64,000 nt of DNA from Naegleria gruberi (GCA_000004985.1 GG738885.1), one strand, 5' to 3'. Positions 902-47,125 are shown, counted from the first letter of the stretch. The notes: generated by a model from the letters alone, not told the origin. Made by a program: numbers and translations.

Positions 902-2407
902 TTAAATGATTATTCTCTTCTTAATGGCTTCCTTCTTTGCCAACTTTTCGAATTGAATTGTTTGTTTGAAACGATGATGAGTGTCAAGCATCAAAATGCA
1001 AATTTCAGATTCGACATCATCAAATAATGAATCAATCAAATGTTCGTTTTGAGCAGTGGCAAATAAATCCAAGTGATTCTTGACCTTATCGGTCATGTAT
1101 TTTGGCAGGTTGACAGATTTTTCACCTCTGACATCTAAATAATCTGTGTAGATTTCGAACGAAATTTCGTACTTCTTCTTTTCCACATCAAGTAAATCCT
1201 TTTCACTAAATTTCTTCTTTTTCTTCTTGTGATCTGTTGAATCAGAACCTGCATCACTACTTATTTCAGATGAAAGCTCGAACAAATATTCTTGAATGTC
1301 AAAACTCCTTTCACACAAAATTTTGTAATCTGAAATCTTTTCCAAAATTTGGAAGTTCTCAATGCTCAACTCAATCTGACAATGTTTTCTAAATAATTCT
1401 CTAGTAATTGGATGTTCCATTGTATCCATTAATAGAAATGCTCTCACTTGATTGAGTTTTCTATTAGTAGATTCATCCTTCTTGACTGATGCCACAAATG
1501 AAGTGACAATGACAGGAACTACCAATATAAGTGAAATCAAAATGACTACTAGTGAAATAGTAACCATAATGACAGTTACACTCTGACTATCCTTCTTGGT
1601 ATTATCCACATAGGAGACCATGATTTGAAATTCATCCTTATATCCATCAAGATAGGTTTGATATTGTTGTGAATTTAACAAAATCATGGCAGTTGAATAG
1701 TTTCCATTCATTGCTAGTCTGATAGCTCTTTGTTCGAGAAAGATGGCTTTGGAGGTTTCTAATTCTGCATTAGGTTTTCCCTTTAGTGCCACATTTCTAA
1801 TAGATTCTGGAACGAGTGCTTTAAAGTAAGCAGTATTGTTACTGAACTTTGACAGATAGGTATTGTACTTGGTTTGATATAATTGAGTAAGTGTTAAATT
1901 GTAATTGGAAAAGACTGAAGATCTGGCAGCTGCAATAGTTGTTTCTCTATAATAGTTAGTGTCAGAATCCAAATTATCCCACACATTGTTATATTCGTAT
2001 TGTAACACGAACGCAGCAATGATTAGACCAGCCAAAATGAGGAATGAAGTTAAATTAATAACTAGAGAACTCAAACTGAAAATTCTCAATGTTGAAAGCT
2101 GTAAAGTTCCTAAGCAAGTATTACAAGTGAGAATGACATCTGAATCTTTGCTCTTAACTGAAGAAGAACGTGGTGTTCTTATTGATGTAGTAATGGACTT
2201 GGCAGGTCCTTCTTCAGCAATATGTGAATTGGTAGTGGATGAATCATATTTTACACTTGCAAACTTTTTAGGAGGTTGCATTGGACTTGAAATTGGTGGA
2301 CTAGTTGCCAAATCGCTCGGAGAAGAACACTCTGCAGGAGAATGAAGGTTGACTTGACTGGTGCTCAACTCTTTGAGTTCTTGCAGTGAGCCACTGTTGG
2401 TGGTCAT
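902..2407 (-). CDS. Two-TM membrane protein with ~150-aa extracytoplasmic helical domain and C-terminal RGS (regulator of G-protein signalling) domain
   Basis: 501-aa ORF. Hydrophobic segments lie at ~aa 110-135 and ~275-300. The C-terminal region carries RGS hallmarks: ELFRKHCQIELSIENFQILEKISDYKIL, then KKYEISFEIYTDYL, then ICILMLDTHHRFKQT. It is a paralogue of the 21181..22869 gene. Confidence 0.7.
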   Translation of the reverse strand: MTTNSGSLQELKELSTSQVNLHSPAECSSPSDLATSPPISSPMQPPKKFASVKYDSSTTNSHIAEEGPAKSITTSIRTPRSSSVKSKDSDVILTCNTCLGTLQLSTLRIFSLSSLVINLTSFLILAGLIIAAFVLQYEYNNVWDNLDSDTNYYRETTIAAARSSVFSNYNLTLTQLYQTKYNTYLSKFSNNTAYFKALVPESIRNVALKGKPNAELETSKAIFLEQRAIRLAMNGNYSTAMILLNSQQYQTYLDGYKDEFQIMVSYVDNTKKDSQSVTVIMVTISLVVILISLILVVPVIVTSFVASVKKDESTNRKLNQVRAFLLMDTMEHPITRELFRKHCQIELSIENFQILEKISDYKILCERSFDIQEYLFELSSEISSDAGSDSTDHKKKKKKFSEKDLLDVEKKKYEISFEIYTDYLDVRGEKSVNLPKYMTDKVKNHLDLFATAQNEHLIDSLFDDVESEICILMLDTHHRFKQTIQFEKLAKKEAIKKRIII

Positions 2408-2586
2408 TTATGATTATTTTTTTGAGTTGTTAAATTGATTTCAATGAAGGTAACGCATTGGTTATAAAGGCAGTCAACTTGGGAAACGTTAAACATTGTA
2501 CAGTACAAATTAAAAATTGTGCTGTAGAAAATGGTGTCGTTGATTTGGTCCTTTGGTCAAGAAATTTTCATTTGGAAAGCATGTTT

Positions 2587-6488: not shown

Positions 6489-7013
6489 TTGAATATTCAG
6501 TTTCTCTTTTTCTTGAAGAACTGCTTTCAAAAGAATATTAAGAAGAAAAAAATAGAAAAAAACAAGATGAGCATTCAGTGTAGACTTCAGAAAGGTCAAC
6601 AAGATTCGAATATTATTCAAGATGACACATTAATGCAAATTTTTAACCAAACTAAACATAACAAAAAGAAGATTATCAAACAGAACGAACAACAATTCGT
6701 ATGGAAACGATTCAATACATTATTCATTGATTATTTTCAAGAACCAAAAACAAAACGAAAGACATCTGACATTAGCAAACAAGAAATTTTAAAAGTATTA
6801 CATCTTACTCAAAGACAGGCATGTAAACAACTTGGATGTACATTATCCACAATGAAAAGAAGATTTTACGAATTGAAATCTGATCTTGGTTTGAAATGTT
6901 GGCCACAGAATTATAATGAAATTTGTAACTTGCCAATATTTCCAAAAATTTATCCATTGAGTTTGAGTTTTATCTTGAATGCTTCAAATGACGAAACGAG
7001 TAAATCTGAATGA
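6489..7013 (+). CDS. Small RWP-RK-like domain protein, paralogue 1 of a 4-gene tandem array
   Basis: The C-terminal domain ...ISKQEILKVLHLTQRQACKQLGCTLSTMKRRFYELKSDLGLKCWPQNY...IFPKIYPLSLSFILN aligns with the RWP-RK core (L..L...AA..LG...T.LKR.CR..GI.RWP.RK). The real start is probably the internal Met at ~6564. Confidence 0.6.
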   Translation: MNIQFLFFLKNCFQKNIKKKKIEKNKMSIQCRLQKGQQDSNIIQDDTLMQIFNQTKHNKKKIIKQNEQQFVWKRFNTLFIDYFQEPKTKRKTSDISKQEILKVLHLTQRQACKQLGCTLSTMKRRFYELKSDLGLKCWPQNYNEICNLPIFPKIYPLSLSFILNASNDETSKSE

Positions 7014-7825: not shown

Positions 7826-8236
7826 ATGAGCTCTGTAAATAATTCCACCATGATTAGAGACACTTTGACAATGCAAATATTTGGCTCAGCAAAATCCACG
7901 AAAAAGGGCAAAATTCAATCAGCTTCTGACTGTCAATTTGTTTGGAAGAGAGTTGACACAAACTTTGGTGTATTTTTCTTGGAGAAAGATCTCGAATTTA
8001 GGTCAAAAAGAAAGACAACTGACATTAGCAAACAAGAGCTCATTAAAGTTTTACATCTTTCTCAAAGACAAGCTGCCAAATCATTGAATTGTACATTATC
8101 AACATTGAAGAGAAGATTTTATAATTTGAAAGAAGAATTTGGAATGTCAACATGGCCAAAGACATTTAAGGAAATAAGTCACCTGCCAATTTATCAGAAA
8201 ATGTATCCAATGTCTTTGAATTTCATCCTCAATTAA
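7826..8236 (+). CDS. Small RWP-RK-like domain protein, paralogue 2
   Basis: ...ISKQELIKVLHLSQRQAAKSLNCTLSTLKRRFYNLKEEFGMSTWPKTF...IYQKMYPMSLNFILN. Same domain and same orientation as the other array members. Confidence 0.65.
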   Translation: MSSVNNSTMIRDTLTMQIFGSAKSTKKGKIQSASDCQFVWKRVDTNFGVFFLEKDLEFRSKRKTTDISKQELIKVLHLSQRQAAKSLNCTLSTLKRRFYNLKEEFGMSTWPKTFKEISHLPIYQKMYPMSLNFILN

Positions 8237-17791: not shown

Positions 17792-19666
17792 ATGGTTTCA
17801 ACTAGCAAGAAGAAGAACTCTTCTTCAAACACTTCCCTACCAAATAGTCCAGCCATTTCCATCACTTCAGTTGAAAGCAATGACATGAACAATTCACCAT
17901 CTTCTCTTCCTTCCTCTCCTTCGAATTCTTCCAATTTTTTCTCTTCTTCACCGAACAGCAAATCACCTGGTAGAAGACTTCACTTTTTTCCCGCCAAATC
18001 TCCTAAAAAAAAATCTACAACTTCCATCTCTACTGATTCACTTCATGCTGCAAGTAATACTAATCATGGTTGTGATGCGATAGGTGATTATACCTTTTCG
18101 TATGAGGCTGTGCTAGATGATGAGGAGACGAGACAGTGTTTATTGGAATATATGAGGACGATTAGATGTGAGGAAAGTTTGTTGTTTTTAGATCAGGTGA
18201 ATTCATTTCATAGAAAAAGATCAACTGCGAATAGGTGGAGTATGATACAGTCAATATTTGAACAATTCTTTTGTGAGCACTCGAAATATGAATTGAATTT
18301 ACCACAGAGAGTTAAGGATATGATGATTCACACCTATTCGGACGTTGTTGAGGAAATTGCTCATAGGAAGAGAATGAATCTTGATGAGGATACTAATAGT
18401 AGTAGTAATTCCAGATCATCATTGGAACAAGCAAATCAGCCACCACCACAACAACAAGTAAAACAAAACAAGAACAAGAATAATAATGAAAAGAGTAATA
18501 ATAATAATAGAAATTCTAAGGATGATTTGGATGTTTCACTAGGTTCTTTGGATTACATAGATTTGAGTGATTGTGAGGAGGCCCTAAAGAAGGCAGAGAG
18601 TTACATCCTCATCAACTTGAAAGAATATGTCTTTCCAAAGTTTGTCGGCTCTGATCACTTTCAAGGATTCATCTCAACAAAGAGCAAGACCTTTATTAAT
18701 ACTATTGGTACGGTGAAGGCCTTATCTCATTCGTGCTTTGTTGAATCATTGATGGACATGAGGAGGTGTGAAATTAATGTAGATCAAGTGAGAATGATCA
18801 AGAAACATGTCTTTGATACCAGATATTGGGATTGTATCTATCAGAAGGAAACAAGCTATGGTTTTATTTCTTCAAAAAAGTACATTCTTGGTGAGGACGA
18901 TCACGCTAAGGGTGTTTACTTTGCCAAGTGTGAAGTGATCTTTCCTTACTCTGCTGACCAAATTATGAATATCATGACCAATACAAAGAATAGAATTGAA
19001 CACGACAAGAATTTGGAAGATATCAAGAGAATTGGTTATAGAAACAAGTCTGGAACTACAAATTTTAATCCAAATCTGGTACATTCCAGTGATGAAGATG
19101 AGGATACACTCTCTTCCACTAGCTCTGCAATGTCTGACCTTCACGATACTGCATCTTCCAGATCTCATACATCAAATCATTCACATCAACAAACAAATCA
19201 TCATTCGCCAATATCAGGAAAAACCAAATTGGCCACCACATTAACACATGAACGATACAAGCTTGGTTGGCCAATCAAGTCTAGATATTATTTGCTCGCT
19301 CAGAGTATGGTACATGATACAACAGATAACATGTACATTATTGCAAAAAAGTCTTGCAGAATTCCAAATTATGATCCAGATGAAGGAACAAATATTGAAG
19401 CCATCAATATTGGTTGTTGGATGTTTCAACCTTTACTAGATGAAAATCAAAAGCCATGTTGTAAATACATTCAATTTGTTGGAACAGATTTGAGAGGAAA
19501 CATTCCAACATTTATCATTGAAAAGATTGTTAGAAAGAGAACTAGTAACTTTTACAAATCCACCATGAAAATGATCAAAGCTTGCGAAGAAGAGTCCACA
19601 ACAAGACCATTCGATTCAAGTGGTTATTTCGATACTCTAGATGAGAATGGCAGCATGGCTCTCTAA
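17792..19666 (+). CDS. RGS domain + START (StAR-related lipid-transfer) domain protein
   Basis: The RGS-like N-terminal part (YTFSYEAVLDDEETRQCLLEYMRTIRCEESLLFLDQVNSF...) is split by a poly-N/Q insert and resumes at LKKAESYILINLKEYVFPKFVGSDHFQGF. The C-terminal ~220 aa carry START-like motifs (...YFAKCEVIFPYSADQIMNIM..., ...GTDLRGNIPTFIIEKIVRKRTSNFYKSTMKMIKA). Confidence 0.65.
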   Translation: MVSTSKKKNSSSNTSLPNSPAISITSVESNDMNNSPSSLPSSPSNSSNFFSSSPNSKSPGRRLHFFPAKSPKKKSTTSISTDSLHAASNTNHGCDAIGDYTFSYEAVLDDEETRQCLLEYMRTIRCEESLLFLDQVNSFHRKRSTANRWSMIQSIFEQFFCEHSKYELNLPQRVKDMMIHTYSDVVEEIAHRKRMNLDEDTNSSSNSRSSLEQANQPPPQQQVKQNKNKNNNEKSNNNNRNSKDDLDVSLGSLDYIDLSDCEEALKKAESYILINLKEYVFPKFVGSDHFQGFISTKSKTFINTIGTVKALSHSCFVESLMDMRRCEINVDQVRMIKKHVFDTRYWDCIYQKETSYGFISSKKYILGEDDHAKGVYFAKCEVIFPYSADQIMNIMTNTKNRIEHDKNLEDIKRIGYRNKSGTTNFNPNLVHSSDEDEDTLSSTSSAMSDLHDTASSRSHTSNHSHQQTNHHSPISGKTKLATTLTHERYKLGWPIKSRYYLLAQSMVHDTTDNMYIIAKKSCRIPNYDPDEGTNIEAINIGCWMFQPLLDENQKPCCKYIQFVGTDLRGNIPTFIIEKIVRKRTSNFYKSTMKMIKACEEESTTRPFDSSGYFDTLDENGSMAL

Positions 19667-21180: not shown

Positions 21181-22869
21181 TTATTTATTGGAAGGAACTT
21201 TGAGAGAATCAAGATTAAGACCTGATTTACTGTCTTGAGCCTTCTTACTCTTTCTCACAGTTGGAAGTTTAATCTTGAGTGATTCCTTCTTTGTCTTTTT
21301 CTGGAATTCAACTGTTTGCTTGAATCGGTGATGGGTGTCAAGCATCAAAATACAAACTTCTCCTTCCACTGGATCGAAAATCATATCACTAAGATGTTCA
21401 TTCTCTCCTGATGCAAACAAATCTAATTGAGTTTTGACCTTGTCAGCTGCATGTTTGTTGATGTTGACAGATTTGTCACCATTGACATCTAGGAAATCAG
21501 TAAAGATTTCAAAAGCAACTTCGTACTTTTTCTTTTCAATTTCAATTAAATCTCTTTCAGTATAACCCTTTTTCTTCTTCTTTTTACCTTGGCTGTCACT
21601 ACTCATTGAAGTTGATGTTGAACCAGTGTCAGAAATGGCATCTGAAAAGGCGACAGTTAGCTCTTGATCATCATACAAGAATACTTGAATTTCAAATGAT
21701 TTCTCACATAAAATCTTGTAATCTGTAATCTTGTCAAGTAACAAGTAATTTTCCAAGCTCATTTCTTGTTTACAATATTCTTTGAATAATTTTCTAAGTT
21801 TGTTATCTCTCATGGTGTCCATAAGCATGTAGGCGTTTGCTTTCTTCAATCTCTTATTGTTGGCATTGTCAGAATTCATGGAAAAGGCAAGTGACATGAT
21901 GACTACTGGAATAACAATGACAATTGACACACAGACAATAATTAATTGCAAAGTGGTCATGGTAGTTGAGAAATCTCTATAGCTAACCTCCAAAGCCTTA
22001 AAATAATCAACAGAAGGCTTGAATTCCACTTCATACCAAGGTAAATAATCTTGATAGGTGTCAGAGCCAATTAAATTCATGGCAGCTGTAAAGTTTCCAG
22101 CTTTGACCATACTAATAGCTTGTCTCTCAACACTCATAGCCTTCACTGTCTTCATATCATAAATTGTTATATTATGTTTGACAGAATATCTCAATTCATT
22201 TGGCATGTATGCCAACATGTTATTAATTTCAGTATTGAACTTGGTTGAGTAATTTCCATAGAGATTGGCATAGCCAAGAGCAACTGTCTTGTTGTTATTG
22301 GCATAGACTGCTGAACGACATGTGTAAACCATCATGTCTCTATAATAGGAAGTGTCAAGATCCATATTTGAAATTGATGTCAATAAATTATTGCTGCCAA
22401 CGTAGCCAACAATAATGACAGTGAGTAATGCGATGAAACCAAGTAGATTAGCAGTTAAACTAGTCAAATTGACAAGCTTGAAGGATGACAGCTTGAGGGT
22501 AGTTCCACAACACATTCTGATGGCAAATAAAGAATTTGACGAGTGACTTGTCCTAGATCCAGTTCCAGATTTCTTATGGGAAGCAACAGAACTCTTCTTT
22601 TTAGACTCTTTAATGATGGTAGAAGCTGCTGGCTCTGTTGCAAAATTTGCTTTTGGTTTTGGACTGGTTGGAGTTGTTGGCGTTTGACATTTTTCCTTGA
22701 CAAGATGATCCATAGAATGACTCGAGCTAGAAAAGGATGAAGAAGCATCACCTGCTGTAAAATTTGTTGGAGTCAAGTAATAATCACAATTATGAACGTC
22801 TATTCCATTCAATTCTTCGATTGCTTTTTGCATGGAACTGTCAGCTGACACTGAAGTTGATTCTTGCAT
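21181..22869 (-). CDS. Two-TM extracytoplasmic-domain protein with C-terminal RGS domain (paralogue of 902..2407)
   Basis: 562-aa ORF with the same order: TM, ~150-aa helical ectodomain, TM, then an RGS domain (KLFKEYCKQEMSLENYLLLDKITDYKILCEKSFEIQ...KKYEVAFEIFTDFLDVNGDKSVNI...VCILMLDTHHRFKQTVEF). Confidence 0.7.
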   Translation of the reverse strand: MQESTSVSADSSMQKAIEELNGIDVHNCDYYLTPTNFTAGDASSSFSSSSHSMDHLVKEKCQTPTTPTSPKPKANFATEPAASTIIKESKKKSSVASHKKSGTGSRTSHSSNSLFAIRMCCGTTLKLSSFKLVNLTSLTANLLGFIALLTVIIVGYVGSNNLLTSISNMDLDTSYYRDMMVYTCRSAVYANNNKTVALGYANLYGNYSTKFNTEINNMLAYMPNELRYSVKHNITIYDMKTVKAMSVERQAISMVKAGNFTAAMNLIGSDTYQDYLPWYEVEFKPSVDYFKALEVSYRDFSTTMTTLQLIIVCVSIVIVIPVVIMSLAFSMNSDNANNKRLKKANAYMLMDTMRDNKLRKLFKEYCKQEMSLENYLLLDKITDYKILCEKSFEIQVFLYDDQELTVAFSDAISDTGSTSTSMSSDSQGKKKKKKGYTERDLIEIEKKKYEVAFEIFTDFLDVNGDKSVNINKHAADKVKTQLDLFASGENEHLSDMIFDPVEGEVCILMLDTHHRFKQTVEFQKKTKKESLKIKLPTVRKSKKAQDSKSGLNLDSLKVPSNK

Positions 22870-27013: not shown

Positions 27014-27018
27014 AATAA

Positions 27019-29543: not shown

Positions 29544-29555
29544 ACCATTTGTTTT

Positions 29556-33271: not shown

Positions 33272-33590
33272 GGTTGGGCTTTCACTTGTTTTTTTGGAGA
33301 ATATTTTGCCGCATCTCTTTTTGGTTGCACTATAGACTTGAAGAAGAGGAATGCGCTCTTAGTGCGCTTGGAGAATGAGGATTTGCGATTGTTTTCAAGT
33401 AAGGAGGATTTGCGATTCGGGGAGGACACTATATTTAAATGAATTGCATAATGTGTATTGAACTAGTTTTACAAAAATTTTTGGAAGTGTACTTTATTAA
33501 TGGTCAGCTTGTTCGCCTGGTTTTTGTGAATCCTCAAACAAAAAGTAACCAACTAGCATATTGAAAATAAATTGTGTGAATATTTTAAAG

Positions 33591-37915: not shown

Positions 37916-38008
37916 AAATAGAGAGAAATTAATTTATTTTAAAGTCAGTCATTCACATTGATAATATTAAAAATTTTGATTTTAATTTACTAAATTGAAT
38001 ATATACAT

Positions 38009-39469
38009 TTATGGTTGTTGAGTAGTTTTCACAGATTGTACATTTGCAAGCATTTCCTTACAGAGCTCAGAGCTTTCGAATTGTAAATAGAGAGGAAACA
38101 CCATTGTACTAATCACATCCTTCTCCAAAGAATCGAACAAATCTTCCACATATCCTTCTTCCTCTATTCTCTTCTTTGCTGCATTAATTAGCTTTTTACT
38201 GGTATTCACCTCAAACACAGCATTATCCTCTAAAAAGGTATCGAAAATATACGAGGCCTTGACATGATGTTCTGGAATGATAATTTCTGAAGGCGGAATG
38301 AAGATGGTAATATCGCACGATTCATCCACAGCAAGATTTGATCCTGATTTCTTAATCAGATCGGAATTGTAGGTGAATTTCTTACAGGCCTTACATAAAA
38401 TCTTGTACTGAGCTATTTCTTCAATAAATATTGCCAATTCCAAACTGAAAATATTAGAGAGATAGGCTTTAAAGTATCTTCTCATTGTAGAATTTTCCAA
38501 AACTTCCTGTACAGTCAACTTATCTGATCCAACAGAGGCAATACTCACTCTTCCCTCCTCCACTTCTTCCTGCTGGAGAGTTTGTTCGATATTGAGAATG
38601 GATCTGGTTTTTCTAGCAGTTTGGAAAATGAAAAACATGTCAGGGAATAATTTCTTCAAATCATTCAAATATTGATCTGGTGATTGTTCTACTTCTGAAA
38701 CCAAATTGCTCGTCTCTGAACTGGCCTTTCCCAAATTGAAAATAAATTTACCATAATCAGGTCTTTCAGATAAATCCTTATAGAAATAACTAGTTTCGAA
38801 TGAACCATGACTAATAATATGCATTGTAAACAATGAAAACATATCCATATGTCTAATATCTTTCAATGAAGGTAATCTCAATTTCTTATCTTCCTTAAAC
38901 ATGAATTTCAGAATGGTTGGAAGTGCCAATGCATGTCTCACTAAACTTGCCTTTGGAACCATTAATAAACCATGTTTGATAGAGTTTGAGATTTTACAAT
39001 GCAAGAGATTGGTTCCTTTCATTGATTTTACGCACTTTTCATTGTTTTCTTGATGGCAAATCACTGGAACAACGTTCATCATTAAGAAACTGCTCAAATA
39101 ATTACTAATTGATGTGATGACATGTTGACACATGGGACAGCCGAACCATTTAATGACAATGAGGAGTACTCTGTGTTTTTCACTCAATCTGAGAACAGAA
39201 TGTCCACTTGGATGGACAATCATCTCTTCCAAAACATTCAAAATGTCAAAAGTTGCTGAGGCGTTTGACATGACCGTGTCAGCACTCTTGGAAATATCGG
39301 ATGAAGCATCTATTGTATTTCTTCTATTACATGTTTGTTCTCCAGCTAAATCTTGAGACAGGGAAACTTCGTCCTTGCTATGTCTTTTTAAATTTGATTG
39401 GGTGCCAACTGTCAAAAATCTAACGCTATTTGTTTTCTTTGAAGATGAAGCGGAGTTGGTATCACTCAT
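38009..39469 (-). CDS. Thioredoxin-fold (CxxC, AhpC/TSA- or PRXL2-like) domain + RGS-like domain protein
   Basis: N-terminal half has ...RVLLIVIKWFGCPMCQHVITSIS..., a WxxC(P)xC in a beta-alpha context. The C-terminal half is RGS-like (MRRYFKAYLSNIFSLELAIFIEEIAQYKIL...IPEHHVKASYIFDTFLEDNAVFEVN...FDSLEKDVISTMVFPLYLQF). Confidence 0.55.
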   Translation of the reverse strand: MSDTNSASSSKKTNSVRFLTVGTQSNLKRHSKDEVSLSQDLAGEQTCNRRNTIDASSDISKSADTVMSNASATFDILNVLEEMIVHPSGHSVLRLSEKHRVLLIVIKWFGCPMCQHVITSISNYLSSFLMMNVVPVICHQENNEKCVKSMKGTNLLHCKISNSIKHGLLMVPKASLVRHALALPTILKFMFKEDKKLRLPSLKDIRHMDMFSLFTMHIISHGSFETSYFYKDLSERPDYGKFIFNLGKASSETSNLVSEVEQSPDQYLNDLKKLFPDMFFIFQTARKTRSILNIEQTLQQEEVEEGRVSIASVGSDKLTVQEVLENSTMRRYFKAYLSNIFSLELAIFIEEIAQYKILCKACKKFTYNSDLIKKSGSNLAVDESCDITIFIPPSEIIIPEHHVKASYIFDTFLEDNAVFEVNTSKKLINAAKKRIEEEGYVEDLFDSLEKDVISTMVFPLYLQFESSELCKEMLANVQSVKTTQQP

Positions 39470-39959
39470 TGTTTTTTTATTGAAGCAAAATGAAAAGTCA
39501 GAAACTATACTTGACAGATGAACTCGAAATATTGACCTTGCGATTGCTGACAGAAGGGGAAAAATGTGGTAAGTAGAATTGAAAGCTGGACAAATTGGAG
39601 CGAAAAAAGAAATATTTGCAGTTTTAAATGAAATGTAGTCAGTGAATATTCCATGAGGTGGTGAAATAGCTGTTATTGACCCTCCTGCCAGGCAATAAGA
39701 GGAAGATTGTGATGTTAGGAATTACATGTCTCTAATAAACATTGGTTCAATGCCAGATCGTGAGATGAAAATTTTAAGGATTTGGCAATTATTGAATAAA
39801 GACTGATGTTATTTGAAAAGTTGTTTTGCCAAATTGCTTAAAATCATGTGCGAAGCCAATCTCCAGACGTGGCATCTTGTTGAATTGTCAAATACCAAGA
39901 CAAGGGAAAAACAAGTACTGATTTTTCAAACGCTATTTATTTTAAAAGTTTATGTGAAA

Positions 39960-40030
39960 TCGGGTGTGGTATAGTGGTAGCATTCCAGACTGTCACTCTG
40001 GCGACCCGGGTTCAATTCCCGGCACTCGAG
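39960..40030 (+). tRNA. tRNA-Asp (anticodon GTC)
   Basis: tcgggtgtggtatagtggtagcattccagactGTCactctggcgacccgggttcaattcccggcactcgag. U1 as in eukaryotic tRNA-Asp. Anticodon stem ccaga/tctgg. B box ggttcaattcc. Confidence 0.8.
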
Positions 40031-40201
40031 ATTAATTTTTGATGACATATCCAAATATTTTAATTTTGTTTTTTAAACATATGAGGAATGATACGTAATC
40101 TACCTAACCATCAATTTTTAAAGTTTCATCTCTTAAAACCACCGAGAAAATAATCAAAGATTCCAACTCTCATTTTCCTCTAACACTATTCAACATGTGG
40201 G

Positions 40202-42104
40202 TTGGTTTTTAAAAATAGGAAATTAAAAAAAATGAAAAGAAGTAATCAAACGATTGACTCAGTTGACAATGCCGATCATCACAAAAAGATTAAATTATCA
40301 ACATCCGATCAAGTAAATACATATTCCTTGTCTGATTTGACTCGGGATGAATGGACTGTGATTATTCAATATTTACCCACCGGAGGAGTGTTAATGTTGG
40401 CCATGACTTGCAAAGATAATTATGAATGGACAATGGAATATATTAAAAACGTTATTTGCAAGTATTATGTGAAAGAACATCCTAAAAAGTATTCCAGAAA
40501 CGTAACAATCAAAGAATGGTCAATAGTGAATGCATTGAGGTTTGTTTTCATTTTGGAAAATTAAATAATTGTTGGAAAGACAAATGGAAAGGCTTTGGGT
40601 GGGAAATTTGAATTTGGATCCAATTACAGAGATTCTAAAAGAAATAGCAAAAAGAAATGGATCAATTAAAGAGTTGTCAAGCTTTCTCAAATTAGATTAT
40701 GATTATGAATCTGTATTTGAATTATTGAATATAAGAAAAGAAAGCCCAACTCCAGTTCAAGTCGAAACTCTTAGTGTCAAACTACCAGATACAAATATAG
40801 GAAGACATATTTATGAGGCATTGGAGAGTCAAAAATTTATCAACACTATTGAATCAGAACTAATTGGTTATGGATTGAAGGCTGCAGAAATTGAAATGAC
40901 ATTAACCAGATCTAAATTTTTCAAAATTCTAACAAAATTGAAAGATATAGAGATTTTGCACCTCAACATTGATCAGGAATACGAATACACAATGGGTGGT
41001 ATGGGTGGAAGGGGAAAAGGAGGAATTCGTAGGCCTATTATTGATAAAATTAATGATGATGGAAAGGAAGCATTTGACGAAACTTTTGCCTACATACCTA
41101 TATTTTACAATCTAAAGACATTAAGAATAGACAAGTACTTTGATGAAAATACTGACTATATTTTTGAGATACTTGGATTGTTTCCTAACCTGGAACATTT
41201 CCATTTGATTACTTCTACAGCTATTGACGATGATCACTTAGAATTAATTTGCAAATTCTGTCCAAAATTGAAAACTCTTGATATTGCTGACGATAATGAG
41301 GCATTAAGCATCACAGATGAAGGTCTGTTAAAATTCTTAGAAAAACAAACAAGCATTGAAATAATAGATTTAGAACCTATGCCATATATTACTGGTGCTG
41401 TATTGAAAAAACTTGGAGACTTCCCAACATTGAAAAAGTTTGCAGTACAACGAACTGTTTGGTGTGAGGGTGGATACGAAGTGCAAGACAACGATGTCTA
41501 TTTTGGAGGAAATCCAAATCCAAAATTGGAATATATAGATATTGGTTCTGGGTATACTTTTAATGAGGAACAATACGAAAAATTATTTACCTCTTTGAAA
41601 ACTGTTGCACCAAATTTAAAAAGCTTTGGACAATTTGGAGAATTAGAATCCAAAAAGATTGTAGAATTATATATCAACACTTTGGAAGAATTGGAAATCA
41701 ATTTAGGCACATTCGATTTAATTCAATCATGTACCAATTTGAAAAAAGTAATATTGGATAGTGTATTGGATAAACAAGACAAGATTGTATGTAACTTGAA
41801 TGTAACTGAACTGGTTGATTATTGTTACAGTCATGAAATGTATCCAATTCTCACAGAATCATTTCCCAACTTGAAAGTTATTGAAGGCGCTCATTTCGGT
41901 CTCTTCAATTTTTTACTAGAAAACATTAATTGCTGGCCACAACTTGAATTTCTAAATGTACAAACTGAGCCTAAATTCGAACTATTAGAAACTCTAATGT
42001 CTCAAAGGCCAAAGCTTGCTATTGTAATAGAGGAAGATATGCCATTGTCACCACAAGCATTCTACTATCAATGGTTGGTCAGGGATTGTCTAAAAAAGAG
42101 ATAG
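40202..42104 (+). CDS. F-box-like + leucine-rich-repeat (cysteine-containing LRR) protein; two abutting ORFs (40202..40564, 40569..42104) with unresolved +1 junction
   Basis: N-terminal LSDLTRDEWTVIIQYLPTGGVLMLAMTCKDNYEWT is F-box-like. The downstream ORF has repeated L..L..L.L..C..ITD units (FPNLEHFHLITSTAIDDDHLELICKFCPKLKTLDIAD...). The ORF track starts the second ORF at a TTG. The first in-frame ATG is at ~40584. Confidence 0.5.
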
Positions 42105-42406
42105 TTTATTAAGGCAATCATCATTAACAAAGAATAAAAAGACTACAGCACCACAGGTTCCCAAGTTGTCTCCAACCTCAGTACTGATGTGGCTCGACGA
42201 TGCTTAACTTCTCAAATCGGACGGGATGAGGTGCATTCATCGTGGTATGGCCGTAGCCATTCATAATCATAATACAATGATAATAAGGAATATTAAAAAT
42301 AGCCATGCAATACCTTAAATTGCGAAATATTAACTTCATGCTGTTTTGAAATTGTCTCTTACCTATTATTGAAAAACATGATTGCTGAATCGTACATGAA
42401 TAACAT

Positions 42407-45400
42407 TTATTCTTTCAGTTTCAAAGTAGAGCCAAGATTTTCTTTCAATTCAATTTTTTTGTTCATACTTTCATAACTGTCAGATAGGACAAAACGTGAG
42501 AAGGTATCGTCAATATTCATAATTATGGCACAATACAAATCTGAGAGAACTTCCTTAATTTCCTTATCGTTTTGTTGATTGTTTCTTACAGATTCGAATA
42601 TTTTATGGAAGGATTTCTTGGTATTGTGTGAAATGTTAAGTTCCATTGGAGAATTATTTTCAATAAATGTAGCTTTCCACTCTTCAAAATGTTTACACAA
42701 TTCTGTGGTTGCAGGTGTGTTGCCATTATTGATAGATTCGAATACTGGTGCAAGTTTAGTCCAGAATATTACATTTTCCAACGAATGCTCAGTTTTGGCA
42801 AATTGTTTGAAAATTTCACATAATGTTGGATTTTTAAGAATTTCATTCAGTTGATTATCTTCCTCAAGTATAGACTCCTCTTTCATTTTAGTATGCTTTC
42901 CACTAATTTTAGATTTAACTAATTCATAAATTGAGACTAGAGAAACTAATCCACCAAAACTCATAATTAACATGATATTATACAATAATTCGAAAGCAAT
43001 TTGAGCAGCAGATAAGCCCTGGTTTGAAGCTACAAGAAGTGAAAATCCAAGCCCATAAGTAATAATAAAGAATATAATGCTCGTAAAGAAGAAAATAAAT
43101 TCTTTTCTGAAAGCAAGATTGTCATTCACTATCAAGTAATTTTTGATTGGATTAATCACTAATTTCTTATCTTTTAAGGTCAGTTTGGTACTCAATTGAA
43201 CATATCTTAATTCCATATAAATATCAAAAAAGTGAATTACACAAACTAATAAAGACATGACCAAAACAAATGAAAATAATGAACCAGCCATGATTGATGC
43301 ATATTGACTTGAAGAGATTACTGCTGTTTGTTGTAAGGAAATGAAAATTACATAAAAAGCAATAAAAACACATGCAACAATCAAGTTAGCAATAATGGAG
43401 AAGGTTTTGCTTGAAAATAAAAGCTTAATCCACTTGAATTTCTTCTCATTGAGCACGTCAACTTCCTTCTCATCGAAAATAGCCATAATTTCATATAGAT
43501 ATCTAAATACAATGTATCGTGAGCTTAATATCAAATAGTTTAGAATAGATAAACAATAGAAAGTGGAAGCAATCATTGTAGAAACTTGTCTCACAATCAT
43601 TGAGTTTGGATTTTTTGCTAAACTTAGAGAATTTGCAATAATGTAAGTGAAAACAAGTTCAATTAATAGTGAAATTAACGCAAAGTATGGAATTATTCCT
43701 CTACTCTTGGTTGGTGTTTTCTTACATGTGACAATAACACCCACCAATGCAATTAATGTTAAAAATATTAGGAAACAACCAATAACAATGGATGCAATAA
43801 CACCACCTTCATTAGCTAATGTCACTTTGACGTCAATAAATGATGAAAATGAAGTTGTGTGATTACAATAGCAATTGACAACACTACTATTTTTAGAAAT
43901 TTCAGAAATGCATCCATCGGTAAGCCATTTCTTACTAGTTTCATCAAAAAACTTGCAAGAGACAACAAGTGAGGAATTATTTTGTACGCTTGACAAAATT
44001 TTAGAATCCACATTCAAGGAAAGTATAATAGGATTTGCCAAATTTGAAACTTGTAAGAATTGGCCATTTAAAATATATTTCAATTCAACAACTTTTGCAA
44101 TATTAACTGAAGAACCTTTGGAAACTTTGGAAATAATACTAGCATCAGTCAAATTACTTGTTAGTTCAGTAGCATTCGAATAGAGAGAAGCCAACTTTTC
44201 CATATTGAAATAAGTAATTGAACCAACTGAAACTCCTTCTCTTACCAGATCTGAAGGTGTAGAAATGGTTGTATTTCCGTCATTGAGATATGATGAAGAA
44301 TTGAGGTTTCTAACAACTGAAACAATAAATGAAGGTGTTTCAGTTTTAAAAATACTATCTTTCTCATCACTGGATTTGGAAGAAACGAGAATCAAGGTTT
44401 CAATTACAGAACTTGAAGAGTAATTTGAAGATACAATGACATTGGAATAGGCATTCAAAACTTGACTAATGGTTGTGTCTATAGCATTAGATGATTTCAA
44501 AGTAGATACTTCTAACTGGTTCAATTCAGATGAAATTGTCGAAATCAAATTCGAAACAGTGGAAACAATAGAAGTTGTAACTGATGATTGAGATGAAATG
44601 ACATTCAAAGCAGTAGAAACCTTCAATGTCTGATCAAGATCAGAGGTATTTCTCTGAACTGTTGACAATGCTTGTGTAACCATAGTCAAAACTGAAACAG
44701 CACTAGATGCTTTCGAATAAGTATCAGAATTTGAAGCAATACTAGCAATATCCTTTGTAGAAATCGAACCTAAGAATGACTCTGTCACTACATTTTCGTA
44801 TTTCATCACTTGAATTGTTTCAGCAGTTTTAAATGAATAAGAAATTCCTCCAAATGAAATTCTTAGTACTGCAGTAAAGTTTCCTTCAGAATTCAATGAA
44901 TATGAAACAATCATTGGATTGGCAGTCGATACAATAGTAGGGTTACCAATATTGGTATAAACACCATTGTTCGAAAACAGAACAGTATAAGTTGCACTTG
45001 TCAAATATGATTTGAGATTTGAATGATACTTGACTGCAATTAGCACAGTGGAATCAACAAAAGTGATAGTATTATCAAATTTGATTGAAATATCTGGTGA
45101 GCAATCAGTAGAATTACCAGAAAGTATCCATCCATCATCACAATAAGGAGTTAGTTTTCGAATAGCTAAATTGCCGTTGTCTGAAATATATATTGAGTTA
45201 TCATTTCTATCAACTGCTAGTGAATTAAGTCGGAACGAAAACAATGATGTCTTTCCATCTTTGTATCCTGATACACCAAACGTTCCTGCAATATTTGTTA
45301 TGAAACCAGATGATTTCTTTAACATTCGAATAGAACTTCTTGAATGTGATAAAATCAAATCACCATTTGATAAATAGAAAAAATCAGCAAGAGAAGTCAA

Positions 45401-47125
45401 TGGAGACTGAATAGCAATAACACTATTAGAAGAAGTATCCCAAATAGCACATGTTCCATTACCAACCAAAGTTATCAAGGTTCCATCATTTAAAATCTTA
45501 TTAATGGTACAATTAGAAGGAAAGTAAAATACAATACATCCATCGGTAGGATCAACTGCCAATCTTTCTGCCTTAAATGTTGTAGAATTGAAATACATGG
45601 AAATTGTTTGTGAACTAAGGTCAACCAATCTAATAGTTCCCAAATCAGCAACGTAAATCTTATTTTCATAAATGGCAATATCAGCAATGCTTCCAAATCC
45701 AGCATTGGAAAGAGGACCACCATCTCCATACCCTGAAGCACTGGTTGAGGTTGTTCCTACAACCACCACATAATTTCCAGTTATTTTGTCAATTTTCATA
45801 ATTAAACTTGGAACTGCATAATAAACTTCTCCATTCCATTCATCTATTGCACCAAATAGAACACCCAATGAAGAATTAGCAGCTGGTAAACCAATTGACA
45901 AGGCTGCAAAATCATCACTTCTTCCATCTCCTCCAATAATTGAAGAGTAACCACTTTCAAATTTGTGTAGGAAATATCTCTCAAAATCCAATCCATATAA
46001 TACTCCTGGTTTGGTTCTACTAGCAGCTATCAATGAAGTACCAACATACATAGTTGTAGATTTGACACTTGTTTGATTGTCACTTGAATATCCAATAAAT
46101 ATTTTGGATTTGCAATTACCTGCGATAGTTGTTTTGGTACCGTTAGTCAAATCAAACTTGTATATGTACTTTTGTTCTTCAGCAACTATTAATTTTCCAT
46201 TCAAATCAAAAAATGCAGAACTAGCTTTGATGACTGGAAGTAGAGTTTGGCTTGTGGAACCACCAGATAAATCATATTTGAAGATACTAGTCAATGCATT
46301 CACATATAGATTATTGTCTTGTTTGAACATTTTGTCAAAGAAAAATGGTGATGAGATGATTGGAGATAGAATAGTTCTGTTTCTCCAATTCATTAAACTG
46401 ACCTTTCCATTTTGTCCTTCAGAAATATAGAGTAAATCACCATTAACAAGCACATCTTGAGCTTGATATCCACTTCCTCCGTAAATAGTTTCAATGAATC
46501 CACTTGATATGTTAAATTGTCTTACACGGTTATTACCATAATCAGCAATGAATAGAATAGTTTCGTCTGGAGAAAGTTCCACTCCTAAAGGATTGTTTAA
46601 TCTAATGCTGTTCAAATCAGATGTACCATCACCAGAAAAATTTGCTGTTCCACATACTCCCACAAGTGTTGAAATGTTTCCATTCTTGATATCCAACTTT
46701 CGAATACATCCATTACCTTGTGCTATATACATGATTGTTTCGTCTTGTGTGAGCACCATCGAGAATGGAGATATTACACTGACAGAAAGTGCAGAACCGT
46801 CCCCAGGGATAGTTTTTCTATAATTACCAGCTACAAGACTAATAATTCCGTTGTTATCTATCTTTCTAATAGCAGCCATGGATGCATCAGCAATATACAT
46901 GGATCCATCTTTTGTTGGTATGATATCCTTGATGTAACTTAGGCATGACATGCTACTCTCGAATCCATCTCCAAATCTCTGTTGAAAAAGTTGTGAGTTT
47001 CCTCCTGCGAAAGTCGAAACTGAATACTTGACGTTCGGTGGTGTTTGTGTGTGAACGGTGGTCACCAACATACAAAGACATGCCAATAATAGAAGGATAT
47101 GACACGCCACTTGAAACACTTTCAT
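42407..47125 (-). CDS. Adhesion-GPCR-like receptor fused to RGS domain: signal peptide - NHL-type beta-propeller repeats - GPS motif - 7TM - C-terminal RGS
   Basis: Single 1572-aa ORF. Signal peptide MKVFQVACHILLLLACLCMLVTTVHT. NHL-like repeats (MYIADASMAAIRKID; IMYIAQGNGCIRKLD; ILFIADYGNNRVRQFN...). GPS consensus CKFFDETSKKWLTDGCISEISKNSSVVNCYCNHTTSFSSF (C-x-C-x-H-[LT]-[ST]-x-F) sits immediately before 7 hydrophobic helices. The C-terminal LCEIFKQFAKTEHSLENVIFWTKLAPVFES...LCKHFEEWKATFIENNSPMELNISHNTKK...LYCAIIMNIDDTFSRFVLSDSYESM is an RGS box. Confidence 0.75.
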   Translation of the reverse strand: MKVFQVACHILLLLACLCMLVTTVHTQTPPNVKYSVSTFAGGNSQLFQQRFGDGFESSMSCLSYIKDIIPTKDGSMYIADASMAAIRKIDNNGIISLVAGNYRKTIPGDGSALSVSVISPFSMVLTQDETIMYIAQGNGCIRKLDIKNGNISTLVGVCGTANFSGDGTSDLNSIRLNNPLGVELSPDETILFIADYGNNRVRQFNISSGFIETIYGGSGYQAQDVLVNGDLLYISEGQNGKVSLMNWRNRTILSPIISSPFFFDKMFKQDNNLYVNALTSIFKYDLSGGSTSQTLLPVIKASSAFFDLNGKLIVAEEQKYIYKFDLTNGTKTTIAGNCKSKIFIGYSSDNQTSVKSTTMYVGTSLIAASRTKPGVLYGLDFERYFLHKFESGYSSIIGGDGRSDDFAALSIGLPAANSSLGVLFGAIDEWNGEVYYAVPSLIMKIDKITGNYVVVVGTTSTSASGYGDGGPLSNAGFGSIADIAIYENKIYVADLGTIRLVDLSSQTISMYFNSTTFKAERLAVDPTDGCIVFYFPSNCTINKILNDGTLITLVGNGTCAIWDTSSNSVIAIQSPLTSLADFFYLSNGDLILSHSRSSIRMLKKSSGFITNIAGTFGVSGYKDGKTSLFSFRLNSLAVDRNDNSIYISDNGNLAIRKLTPYCDDGWILSGNSTDCSPDISIKFDNTITFVDSTVLIAVKYHSNLKSYLTSATYTVLFSNNGVYTNIGNPTIVSTANPMIVSYSLNSEGNFTAVLRISFGGISYSFKTAETIQVMKYENVVTESFLGSISTKDIASIASNSDTYSKASSAVSVLTMVTQALSTVQRNTSDLDQTLKVSTALNVISSQSSVTTSIVSTVSNLISTISSELNQLEVSTLKSSNAIDTTISQVLNAYSNVIVSSNYSSSSVIETLILVSSKSSDEKDSIFKTETPSFIVSVVRNLNSSSYLNDGNTTISTPSDLVREGVSVGSITYFNMEKLASLYSNATELTSNLTDASIISKVSKGSSVNIAKVVELKYILNGQFLQVSNLANPIILSLNVDSKILSSVQNNSSLVVSCKFFDETSKKWLTDGCISEISKNSSVVNCYCNHTTSFSSFIDVKVTLANEGGVIASIVIGCFLIFLTLIALVGVIVTCKKTPTKSRGIIPYFALISLLIELVFTYIIANSLSLAKNPNSMIVRQVSTMIASTFYCLSILNYLILSSRYIVFRYLYEIMAIFDEKEVDVLNEKKFKWIKLLFSSKTFSIIANLIVACVFIAFYVIFISLQQTAVISSSQYASIMAGSLFSFVLVMSLLVCVIHFFDIYMELRYVQLSTKLTLKDKKLVINPIKNYLIVNDNLAFRKEFIFFFTSIIFFIITYGLGFSLLVASNQGLSAAQIAFELLYNIMLIMSFGGLVSLVSIYELVKSKISGKHTKMKEESILEEDNQLNEILKNPTLCEIFKQFAKTEHSLENVIFWTKLAPVFESINNGNTPATTELCKHFEEWKATFIENNSPMELNISHNTKKSFHKIFESVRNNQQNDKEIKEVLSDLYCAIIMNIDDTFSRFVLSDSYESMNKKIELKENLGSTLKLKE

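What the first reader, a model, noticed from the sequence alone, without database searches (positions are those of the whole stretch)
902..47125. Unusual density and architectural diversity of RGS-domain genes
Five RGS-box genes occur in 64 kb, each with a different partner: two 2-TM ectodomain-RGS genes, RGS+START (17792..19666), a thioredoxin-fold CxxC + RGS (38009..39469) and GPS-7TM-RGS (42407..47125). This points to lineage-specific expansion and domain shuffling in heterotrimeric G-protein regulation. The RGS-START and Trx-like-RGS combinations would couple lipid and redox sensing, respectively, to G-alpha GAP activity.
Basis: partly seen in the sequence, partly recalled or inferred. Interest (0 to 1): 0.65.

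Follow-up and report, generated by a model that had tools for sequence, protein, structure and literature searches.

The report
Five RGS genes in Naegleria gruberi
This stretch of the amoeba Naegleria gruberi's genome really holds five G-protein "off-switch" (RGS) genes of four different designs, but the organism is already known to carry about 229 such genes, so the grouping is only a little denser than chance allows and mostly confirms published work.

Summary
The window is Naegleria gruberi nuclear DNA. All five ORFs are exact matches to annotated proteins: NAEGRDRAFT_80658, 51040, 51041, 51045 and 80662.

**Partner domains.** These also hold:
- START is supported by the family profile.
- The "Trx-like CxxC" module is a peroxiredoxin-like (AhpC/TSA-type) thioredoxin-fold domain (hhalign 99.8%).
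- The large gene reads signal peptide, NHL propeller, GPS, 7TM, RGS.
- The 2-TM genes carry a predicted four-helix-bundle ectodomain.

**What is already published.** N. gruberi has 229 RGS proteins. RGS+START, TM-RGS and 7TM-RGS with GPS motifs in Naegleria are all described.

**Density.** It is weakly unusual. In simulation, 9-26% of random placements give some 64-kb stretch with five or more RGS genes.

**Origin of the group.**
- It is not a tandem array. The RGS boxes of the different architectures are 21-33% identical, and the two 2-TM genes are old paralogs.
- It is not conserved. The collinear N. lovaniensis segment keeps only RGS-START.

**Possibly new.** I found no description of the Prx-like-RGS architecture or of the chemoreceptor-like 2-TM RGS architecture.

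The parts
902..2407 (-). 2-TM receptor-like RGS gene (NAEGRDRAFT_80658, 501 aa). Disordered N-terminus, TM1 aa 107-139, helical ectodomain about aa 140-272, TM2 aa 273-311, RGS box aa 329-488 (nt 944-1423).
17792..19666 (+). Soluble RGS-START gene (NAEGRDRAFT_51040, 624 aa). The RGS box spans aa 103 to about 300 and is split by an Asn/Ser-rich insert. START spans about aa 300-600 with a Ser/His-rich insert.
   Evidence: Pfam RGS 43.3 bits; START 16.1-17.3 bits, below the cut-off of 22. 7 of 8 family members hit START, best E 3.1e-9. The family profile hits RGS16 at 8.9e-10, RGS4 over the whole box, and STARD10 at 5.5e-4. No TM segment.
21181..22869 (-). Second 2-TM receptor-like RGS gene (NAEGRDRAFT_51041, 562 aa). 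TM1 aa 132-164, ectodomain, TM2 aa 300-334, RGS box aa 352-522 (nt 21304-21816).
   Evidence: Pfam RGS 29.6 bits. Two TM segments. 40% identical to the 902-2407 product. Its nearest relative is P0016, on another N. gruberi scaffold.
38009..39469 (-). Soluble peroxiredoxin-like (CxxC) + RGS gene (NAEGRDRAFT_51045, 486 aa). Prx-like domain aa 77-254 (nt 38708-39241) with the motif WFGC111PMC114Q. RGS box aa 320-470 (nt 38060-38512).
   Evidence: Pfam RGS 30.1 bits. No direct Pfam hit for the N-terminal domain. Its profile finds 131 relatives. Of 60 scanned, 39 carry RGS, 29 AhpC-TSA, 10 AhpC-TSA_2 and 9 Redoxin. hhalign against stand-alone AhpC/TSA-type relatives gives 99.8%, E 3.5e-29.
42407..47125 (-). 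Adhesion-receptor-like NHL-GPS-7TM-RGS gene (NAEGRDRAFT_80662, 1572 aa). Signal peptide aa 1-28; NHL/teneurin-type propeller region aa about 48-657; Ser/Thr-rich stalk; GPS aa 1056-1094 (nt 43844-43960); 7 TM aa 1101-1403 (nt 42917-43825); RGS aa 1426-1553 (nt 42467-42850).
   Evidence: Pfam RGS 39.5, GPS 29.5 and NHL 28.2 bits. TEN_NHL 50.2 bits. Seven hydropathy peaks, the third weak, and the GPS motif C..W..C..CYCNHTTSF. The RGS box aligns to RGS5 and RGS1 with S-x-E-N, the N128 equivalent and D..RF all kept.

Best explanation
This is ordinary Naegleria gruberi chromosomal sequence. It happens to carry five members, of four unrelated architectures, of the organism's very large RGS family (about 229 genes).

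Each gene is an old, separately evolving lineage found in other heteroloboseans. They lie together because the family is so numerous and because of rearrangements specific to the N. gruberi lineage. Local duplication, local domain shuffling and selection for a cluster are not needed to explain it.

Inferred mechanism: each protein places an RGS box, which accelerates GTP hydrolysis on G-alpha subunits, under the control of a different input module.
- An adhesion-GPCR-like NHL-GPS-7TM receptor.
- Two 2-TM receptors with a four-helix-bundle ectodomain.
- A START lipid-binding pocket.
- A peroxiredoxin-like CxxC domain.

The receptor-type proteins most likely act as ligand-regulated GAPs on self-activating G-alpha subunits, as shown for plant AtRGS1 and for isolated RGS boxes of N. 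fowleri 7TM-RGS proteins.

Shown here: domain content, topology, paralogy and lack of conserved clustering. Inferred: GAP activity, and any lipid, redox or ligand control.
For: - Organism and gene models.
- RGS boxes.
- Family size and known architectures: PMC3971589 and PMC9283941. The latter shows GAP activity of the Nf 7TM RGS2-4 boxes on Nf G-alpha subunits.
- Not tandem copies. RGS boxes of the different architectures are 21-33% identical. The two 2-TM genes are 41% identical. In a neighbour-joining tree, 21181-22869 pairs with P0016 on another N. gruberi scaffold. 902-2407 pairs with an environmental sequence, and that pair groups with an N. fowleri/N. lovaniensis pair.
- Architectures are old. 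RGS-START occurs in N. fowleri and N. lovaniensis. Prx-like-RGS occurs in those species and in Willaertia magna. 2-TM-RGS occurs in both other Naegleria species.
- Not conserved as a cluster. N. lovaniensis locus L001 is collinear with the window for RGS-START, the PAS gene, the 296/337-aa gene and, weakly, DUF4116. It lacks the 13.9-kb and 11.2-kb intervals that hold the other three RGS genes of this part of the window.
- The chance of such a grouping somewhere in the genome is 0.085-0.26.
- The genes lie on both strands, among unrelated genes (LysM, TPR, C2orf69, RWP-RK, P450, PAS, tRNAs, 5S rRNA).
Against: - For one pre-chosen 64-kb window, five RGS genes is about 14 times the expectation (P 3.6e-5). 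Some real local enrichment cannot be excluded.
- I could not compute the actual genome-wide distribution of RGS genes, because the N. gruberi scaffolds are not in the contig index.
- Paralogs of two of the genes (P0016, P0010) share one other 297-kb scaffold. Their UniProt accession spacing (16 steps) equals that of the two window genes. This hints at an old segmental duplication that carried two RGS genes together.
- No GAP activity, expression or ligand data exist for any of the five.
Confidence: 0.8

Rival explanations
1. The five genes form a functional, selectively maintained 'RGS island'. Different sensors that feed into the same G-alpha pathway would be kept together for co-regulation.
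For: Fixed-window enrichment of about 14-fold, P 3.6e-5. Two paralogs of window genes share another scaffold with the same accession spacing.
Against: - The collinear N. lovaniensis segment holds only RGS-START, with no other RGS gene within +/-10 kb.
- The nearest N. lovaniensis homolog of the Prx-like-RGS gene lies on a different contig with no RGS neighbour.
- The genes are on both strands and are separated by many unrelated genes, tRNAs and a 5S rRNA gene.
- The genome-wide chance of such a stretch is 9-26%.
Confidence: 0.07
2. The grouping arose by local tandem duplication of one RGS gene, followed by domain shuffling at this locus.
For: Two of the genes (902-2407 and 21181-22869) are clear paralogs with the same 2-TM architecture, 19 kb apart. 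N. lovaniensis has an adjacent pair of this family, C9374_007672 and C9374_007673.
Against: - The two are only 41% identical over conserved columns, and each has closer relatives elsewhere: 59% to P0016 on another scaffold, and 66% to an environmental sequence.
- RGS boxes of the other architectures are 21-33% identical and barely detectable by BLAST.
- Every architecture predates the split of the Naegleria species.
Confidence: 0.08
3. The RGS boxes of the Prx-like-RGS protein, and perhaps of the RGS-START protein, are not GAPs. They would be G-alpha-binding effector or scaffold modules, as in RGS-RhoGEFs, sorting nexins, axin or GRKs. On that reading, 'redox or lipid sensing coupled to GAP activity' is wrong for them.
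For: - The Prx-like-RGS box aligns best to EhRGS-RhoGEF (E 3.8e-4) and SNX13 (7.4e-4).
- Aligned to RGS1, it has Leu at the Asn88 position and lacks the Asp163 and Arg167 equivalents. Residue roles are from the RGS4-Gi-alpha1 structure, from my own knowledge.
- The RGS-START family has Ser at the Asn88 position.
Against: - The Asn128 equivalent, the residue most important for GAP action, is kept in all five boxes.
- N. fowleri RGS-RhoGEF, also divergent, still showed GAP activity (PMC9283941).
- The RGS-START box matches R4-type RGS16 and RGS4 well (E about 1e-9 to 1e-8).
Confidence: 0.3

Closest known systems
Naegleria fowleri 7TM RGS proteins (Nf 7TM RGS1-4; Bosch et al. 2022, PMC9283941) and plant AtRGS1
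   Same: An N-terminal seven-helix membrane domain with a C-terminal cytosolic RGS box. Several N. fowleri members also carry a GPS motif and a large adhesion-type ectodomain. The 42407-47125 RGS box keeps all canonical G-alpha contact residues.
   Different: The ectodomain here is an NHL/teneurin-type propeller, not the EGF or lectin modules reported for Nf 7TM RGS2-4. The GPS cleavage position reads H-T|T rather than the usual H-L|T/S. I did not establish one-to-one orthology with any N. fowleri protein.
Metazoan adhesion GPCRs (GAIN/GPS + 7TM) and teneurins
   Same: A GPS motif with four Cys and one Trp sits immediately before TM1. The extracellular region is long and includes an NHL propeller.
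   Different: The 7TM part matches no Pfam 7TM family. The output is an RGS box, which switches G-alpha off, rather than GEF activity of the receptor. No GAIN domain was recognised by Pfam.
Bacterial chemoreceptors and sensor kinases with a periplasmic four-helix-bundle ligand-binding domain (Tar/Tsr type; Vc1313-LBD 8bsa, MCP2201 9kup, HK9 3va9, TorS 3i9w)
PRXL2 / AhpC-TSA_2 (PF13911) and AhpC-TSA (PF00578) peroxiredoxin-like thioredoxin-fold proteins
   Same: The shared motifs are FGCxxC, VHM/CHQE and (D/E)RPDY over about 165 residues. hhalign gives 99.8% to stand-alone relatives, and those relatives pass the Pfam cut-offs for AhpC-TSA and AhpC-TSA_2.
   Different: The Naegleria domain itself scores below Pfam detection. 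It is fused to an RGS box, and it carries extra conserved Cys and His residues (CHQE, HC). No peroxidase or reductase activity is known.
RGS+START combinations listed for diverse eukaryotes (de Mendoza et al. 2014, PMC3971589)
   Same: The same two domains occur in one soluble protein.
   Different: That paper gives no functional data. Here both domains are interrupted by low-complexity inserts, and the RGS box has Ser at the Asn88 position.

Membership tests
RGS domain (PF00615) | Profile-HMM match at or above Pfam's gathering score (23.9 bits) | tested here: met
   43.3, 39.5, 30.1 and 29.6 bits for four genes. The fifth (902-2407) scores 23.5 bits, 0.4 bit short, but it is 40% identical to a member that passes.
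RGS domain (PF00615) | All-helical RGS fold | tested here: met
RGS domain acting as a G-alpha GAP (R4-like) | Conserved G-alpha contact residues (RGS4 Ser85/Glu87/Asn88, Asn128, Asp163/Arg167; roles from the RGS4-Gi-alpha1 structure, my own knowledge) | tested here: inconclusive
   All are kept in 42407-47125. By motif inspection they are also kept in both 2-TM genes: SxEN, SVN and D..HRF. RGS-START has Asn88->Ser. Prx-like-RGS has Asn88->Leu and lacks Asp163 and Arg167. Asn128 is kept in all five.
RGS domain acting as a G-alpha GAP (R4-like) | Measured acceleration of G-alpha GTP hydrolysis | not testable with these tools
   Shown only for isolated boxes of N. fowleri 7TM RGS2-4 and RGS-RhoGEF (PMC9283941).
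7TM-RGS receptor-GAPs (AtRGS1 / Nf 7TM RGS) | Seven transmembrane helices N-terminal to a cytosolic RGS box | tested here: met
   Seven hydropathy peaks lie between aa 1101 and 1403. The third is weak (about 1.1 on a 19-residue Kyte-Doolittle window). The RGS box starts 23 residues after the last peak. No dedicated TM predictor was available.
GPS / adhesion-receptor autoproteolysis motif (PF01825) | GPS profile match directly before TM1, with conserved Cys/Trp pattern | tested here: met
   29.5 bits against a cut-off of 22.5, aa 1056-1094. The motif reads C..W..C..C-Y-C-N-H-T-T-S-F, and TM1 begins about 10 residues later.
GPS / adhesion-receptor autoproteolysis motif (PF01825) | Cleavage consensus H-L|T/S, and actual self-cleavage | tested here: inconclusive
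   The site reads H-T|T, with Thr instead of Leu at position -1. Cleavage cannot be tested here.
START lipid-binding domain (PF01852) | Profile-HMM match at or above the gathering score (22 bits) in this protein | tested here: not met
   16.1 bits for the whole protein and 17.3 bits for the C-terminal part. Only profile positions 89-203 of 207 are covered.
START lipid-binding domain (PF01852) | Family-level homology to START | tested here: met
   7 of 8 members of the orthologous/paralogous family match START, best E 3.1e-9. The family profile hits STARD10 (5.5e-4), STARD6 (7.6e-3) and carotenoid-binding START proteins in the PDB.
Thioredoxin-fold peroxiredoxin-like proteins (AhpC-TSA PF00578 / AhpC-TSA_2 PF13911) | Direct profile-HMM match | tested here: not met
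   No thioredoxin-clan hit except DUF929 at E 0.16. No PDB sequence hit.
Thioredoxin-fold peroxiredoxin-like proteins (AhpC-TSA PF00578 / AhpC-TSA_2 PF13911) | Homology through intermediate sequences or profile-profile comparison, with a CxxC motif at the start of helix 1 | tested here: met
   The domain profile finds 131 relatives. Of 60 scanned, 29 hit AhpC-TSA, 10 AhpC-TSA_2 and 9 Redoxin. P0096 passes both cut-offs (39.2 against 26, and 34.1 against 27). hhalign gives 99.8%, E 3.5e-29 over 163 columns. FGC-P-M/L/I-C is present in every family member whose gene model includes the domain's N-terminus, 5 of 6.
Thioredoxin-fold peroxiredoxin-like proteins (AhpC-TSA PF00578 / AhpC-TSA_2 PF13911) | Predicted thioredoxin fold | tested here: inconclusive
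   The AF2 model has pLDDT 41.7. The order of secondary-structure elements (b-a-b-a-b ... b-b-a, with the helix starting at the CxxC) fits the fold, but the model is not reliable.
Bacterial-type four-helix-bundle sensor domain (4HB_MCP and relatives) | Sequence-profile membership | tested here: not met
   No Pfam match at E <= 10 for either ectodomain.
Bacterial-type four-helix-bundle sensor domain (4HB_MCP and relatives) | Fold and TM1-bundle-TM2 topology | tested here: inconclusive
Tandem gene array / locally duplicated cluster | Neighbouring members are each other's closest relatives | tested here: not met
   Neighbour-joining tree and identity matrix. Pairwise BLAST of the RGS boxes.

The most novel reading that the evidence does not exclude
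The peroxiredoxin-like CxxC + RGS proteins would be an undescribed family of redox-gated regulators of heterotrimeric G proteins. There are three paralogs in N. gruberi, others in N. fowleri, N. lovaniensis and Willaertia, and dozens of environmental relatives. On this reading, oxidation of the FGCxxC pair changes how the attached RGS box engages G-alpha.

Separately, the 2-TM RGS proteins would be eukaryotic receptor-GAPs built on a bacterial-chemoreceptor-like four-helix-bundle sensor.

Neither architecture turned up in the literature I could search. The databases annotate only the RGS domain in these proteins. The key comparative paper (Anantharaman et al. 2011, Gene 475:63) could not be read, so prior description is not excluded.
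Probability: 0.2. Interest if true: 0.55.

Novelty: new member of a known kind. Interest (0 to 1): 0.3.

Why it matters
The main point, that Naegleria has a huge and architecturally varied RGS repertoire, is already published. This window therefore adds an illustration rather than a discovery.

What it does add is annotation. The unannotated N-terminal domain of NAEGRDRAFT_51045 and its relatives is a peroxiredoxin-like CxxC thioredoxin-fold module. The 2-TM RGS receptors have a confidently predicted helical-bundle ectodomain that resembles bacterial chemoreceptor sensors.

If these modules really gate G-alpha inactivation, they would be simple, testable examples of "receptor-GAP" signalling in a lineage where many G-alpha subunits self-activate. 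They would also be possible leads in the pathogenic relative N. fowleri, which has orthologs.

Tried and rejected
- **Direct Pfam scan of the Trx-like domain and the two ectodomains at E <= 10.** It gave nothing useful. The Trx call was settled only through a profile search of 1.84 billion representative proteins and hhalign.
- **AF2 model of the Prx-like-RGS protein from a 6-sequence alignment.** pLDDT was 41.7, too poor for a fold search.
- **PDB sequence searches.** The Prx-like domain profile gave no hit. The 2-TM family profiles gave no usable RGS alignment.
- **Exact-protein look-ups to fetch N. gruberi scaffolds.** I wanted them for a genome-wide census and to test the suspected paralogous block on the 297-kb scaffold. 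All failed because this genome is not in the contig index.
- **Foldseek against afdb50.** The library was not available.
- **Anantharaman et al. 2011 and the supplement of de Mendoza et al. 2014.** Neither is held.
- **Considered and rejected:**
  - A sixth RGS box hidden in another frame.
  - A tandem-duplication origin.
  - A conserved syntenic cluster.
  - A G-alpha gene in the window. No G-alpha hit appeared among the 38 ORFs of >= 120 aa that I scanned. A few such ORFs were not scanned.

Full report
**What the window is**

The sequence has about 33% G+C and is densely packed with long, uninterrupted ORFs.
- NAEGRDRAFT_80658 (902-2407, -)
- NAEGRDRAFT_51040 (17792-19666, +)
- NAEGRDRAFT_51041 (21181-22869, -)
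- NAEGRDRAFT_51045 (38009-39469, -)
- NAEGRDRAFT_80662 (42407-47125, -)

The ORFs are therefore accepted gene models, not chance reading frames.

Pfam finds an RGS box in all five. The scores are 43.3, 39.5, 30.1, 29.6 and 23.5 bits against a gathering score of 23.9.

A six-frame scan with a profile of the five boxes finds no further copy in the 64 kb.

**The architectures**

*(a) 42407-47125.* This gene encodes, in order:
- a signal peptide;
- an NHL/teneurin-type propeller region (TEN_NHL 50.2 bits, NHL 28-30 bits);
- a Ser/Thr-rich stalk;
- a GPS motif (29.5 bits), C..W..C..CYCNH-TT-SF, about ten residues before the first membrane helix;
- seven hydropathy peaks, the third weak;
- a C-terminal RGS box.

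The RGS box aligns to RGS5 and RGS1 with the SxEN, (E/Q)xN and DxxxRF contact motifs intact.

*(c) 17792-19666.* This is a soluble protein with an RGS box split by a low-complexity insert, followed by a START domain. On its own it scores only 16-17 bits for START against a cut-off of 22. However, seven of eight family members from N. gruberi, N. fowleri and N. lovaniensis match START, with best E 3.1e-9. The family profile also finds STARD10 and STARD6 in the PDB, alongside RGS16 and RGS4.

*(d) 38009-39469.* This protein has no membrane segment. Its N-terminal domain (aa 77-254, motif WFGCPMCQ) has no Pfam hit. A profile of this domain from five Naegleria homologs retrieves 131 proteins from 1.84 billion representatives. 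Of 60 scanned, 39 carry RGS, 29 AhpC-TSA, 10 AhpC-TSA_2 and 9 Redoxin. By counting, at least eight therefore carry both RGS and AhpC-TSA.

Stand-alone relatives of about 175 aa pass Pfam's cut-offs for AhpC-TSA and AhpC-TSA_2 (P0096). They share the FGCxxC, VHM/CHQE and DRPDY motifs. Profile-profile comparison gives 99.8% probability, E 3.5e-29, over 163 columns.

The "thioredoxin-fold CxxC" reading is therefore right. More precisely, it is a peroxiredoxin-like (PRXL2/AhpC-TSA_2-type) domain. My structure model of this protein was too poor to add anything (pLDDT 41.7).

**Is the density unusual?**

De Mendoza et al. 2014 count 229 RGS proteins in N. gruberi, more than in any other genome they surveyed (PMC3971589). 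The genome is 41 Mb with 15,727 genes (PMC4408790).

That gives 0.36 RGS genes expected per 64 kb, so five in one fixed window has P = 3.6e-5. Across the whole genome the picture changes. In random placement, 8.5% of trials give at least one 64-kb stretch with five or more genes. The figure is 26% if the true family size is 300, which is plausible because one of these five genes falls below the cut-off used for the census. For four or more genes it is 65%.

The grouping is a mild enrichment at most. I could not compute the real distribution, because the N. gruberi scaffolds are not retrievable with these tools.

**Origin of the grouping**

The RGS boxes of the different architectures are only 21-33% identical to one another.

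The two 2-TM genes are paralogs, but old ones at 41% identity over conserved columns. In a neighbour-joining tree:
- 21181-22869 pairs with P0016 on a different N. gruberi scaffold (59% identity);
- 902-2407 pairs with an environmental sequence (66% identity), and that pair groups with an N. fowleri / N. lovaniensis pair.

Every architecture is shared with other species:
- RGS-START and the 2-TM type occur in N. fowleri and N. lovaniensis.
- The Prx-like type occurs in those species and in Willaertia magna.

So no duplication or shuffling happened at this locus.

Comparison with N. lovaniensis is informative. Locus L001 is collinear with the window for RGS-START, a PAS-domain gene, a 296/337-aa gene and, weakly, a DUF4116 gene. 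In N. lovaniensis the gaps between these anchors are 3.8 kb and 0.4 kb. In N. gruberi the same gaps are 13.9 kb and 11.2 kb:
- The first holds the 2-TM gene 21181-22869.
- The second holds the Prx-like-RGS gene and the NHL-GPS-7TM-RGS gene, together with a tRNA-Asp and a 5S rRNA gene.

The closest N. lovaniensis homolog of the Prx-like-RGS gene sits on another contig with no RGS neighbour. The cluster is thus specific to the N. gruberi lineage, or was lost in the other lineage. It is not a conserved unit.

**How the genes most likely work**

This part is inference from established knowledge of the families. RGS boxes bind the transition state of G-alpha and accelerate GTP hydrolysis.

In Naegleria fowleri, isolated RGS boxes of three 7TM-RGS proteins and of RGS-RhoGEF were shown to be selective GAPs for several G-alpha subunits, including self-activating ones. 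Several 7TM-RGS proteins there carry GPS motifs and adhesion-type ectodomains (PMC9283941).

The NHL-GPS-7TM-RGS protein here belongs to that class. Like plant AtRGS1, it most likely acts as a receptor whose extracellular state controls a cytosolic GAP.

The two 2-TM proteins have the same logic with a simpler membrane anchor. Their RGS boxes keep the canonical contact motifs.

The two soluble proteins are less certain:
- The RGS-START box has Ser at the RGS4-Asn88 position.
- The Prx-like-RGS box has Leu there, lacks the Asp163 and Arg167 equivalents, and resembles EhRGS-RhoGEF and SNX13 most closely.
- All five boxes keep the Asn128 equivalent.

I rate GAP function as likely for three of the five and open for two. 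Lipid or redox control is plausible but untested.

**Comparison with what is known, and novelty**

These points are already published:
- expansion of RGS genes in N. gruberi;
- RGS with transmembrane segments;
- 7TM-RGS with GPS motifs in Naegleria;
- the RGS+START combination.

I found no description of a peroxiredoxin-like + RGS architecture, or of a chemoreceptor-like 2-TM RGS receptor, in the searchable literature. The source databases annotate only PF00615 on these proteins. The most relevant comparative study (Anantharaman et al. 2011) could not be read.

**Verdict**

The "unusual density" is marginal and not conserved. The biology is largely known. The residual interest lies in the two apparently undescribed architectures. 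Interest 0.3.

Noticed in passing
window 42140-42258 (-): A complete 5S rRNA gene (Rfam 101.5 bits) lies about 150 bp downstream of the stop codon of the NHL-GPS-7TM-RGS gene. It sits inside one of the two intervals that the collinear N. lovaniensis segment lacks.
   Followed up: partly
window 31558-31630 (+), 54111-54183 (+), 39960-40030 (+): Two tRNA-Lys(CTT) genes with the same Rfam score (66.4 bits) and one tRNA-Asp(GTC) gene are scattered among the protein-coding genes.
   Followed up: no
window 6489-7013, 7826-8236, 9070-9546, 11775-12230 (all +): Four small ORFs (136-174 aa) each carry an RWP-RK-like domain (20-29 bits, all just under the cut-off of 29.3). They lie within about 6 kb and are interrupted by a LysM gene (10482-11486). 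Unlike the RGS genes, this looks like a true local tandem family.
   Followed up: no
window 33591-36068 (-) and L001 15763-18853: A PAS-domain gene is split over three ORF pieces and is presumably spliced. Its PAS-containing exon is up to 90% identical at the protein level to N. lovaniensis, far more conserved than the neighbouring RGS genes.
   Followed up: partly
window 19667-33590 and 37916-49034, compared with L001 11960-15762 and 20099-20400: Inside a backbone collinear with N. lovaniensis, N. gruberi has 13.9 kb and 11.2 kb where N. lovaniensis has 3.8 kb and 0.4 kb. These intervals hold three of the five RGS genes, a P450 gene fragment, large ORFs with no Pfam match (24446-27013, 40569-42104, 47367-48866), tRNAs and the 5S gene. 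No outgroup was available to tell insertion from deletion.
   Followed up: partly
N. gruberi proteins P0016 (D2VWD0) and P0010 (D2VWB4) on a 297,120-bp scaffold: The closest N. gruberi paralogs of the 2-TM RGS gene 21181-22869 and of the Prx-like-RGS gene 38009-39469 lie on the same other scaffold. Their UniProt accession spacing is 16 steps, equal to that of the two window genes (D2VNN6, D2VNP2). This hints at an old segmental duplication that carried both genes. It could not be tested because the scaffold could not be fetched.
   Followed up: no
proteins P0040 (1205 aa) and P0044 (1007 aa), environmental: The same peroxiredoxin-like CxxC module also occurs C-terminal to ankyrin repeats in long unnamed proteins (P0040: Pfam; P0044: the source's name 'ankyrin repeat protein'). 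It therefore appears to be a mobile signalling module, not confined to RGS fusions.
   Followed up: partly
window 49035-50156 and 50176-50847 (-): Two adjacent DUF4116 repeat genes (231.9 and 91.6 bits). A DUF4116 gene also closes the collinear N. lovaniensis segment.
   Followed up: no
N. lovaniensis C9374_007672 / C9374_007673 (P0017, P0021), contig of 521,392 bp: In N. lovaniensis, two 2-TM RGS genes of this family have consecutive locus tags, so tandem duplication does occur in this family elsewhere. The two are 57% identical over conserved columns.
   Followed up: no
window 32053-32625 (-): A cytochrome P450 fragment (88.6 bits, profile positions 245-398 of 462) is evidently one exon of a spliced gene. 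It lies in a stretch (27-33.5 kb) with few long ORFs.
   Followed up: no
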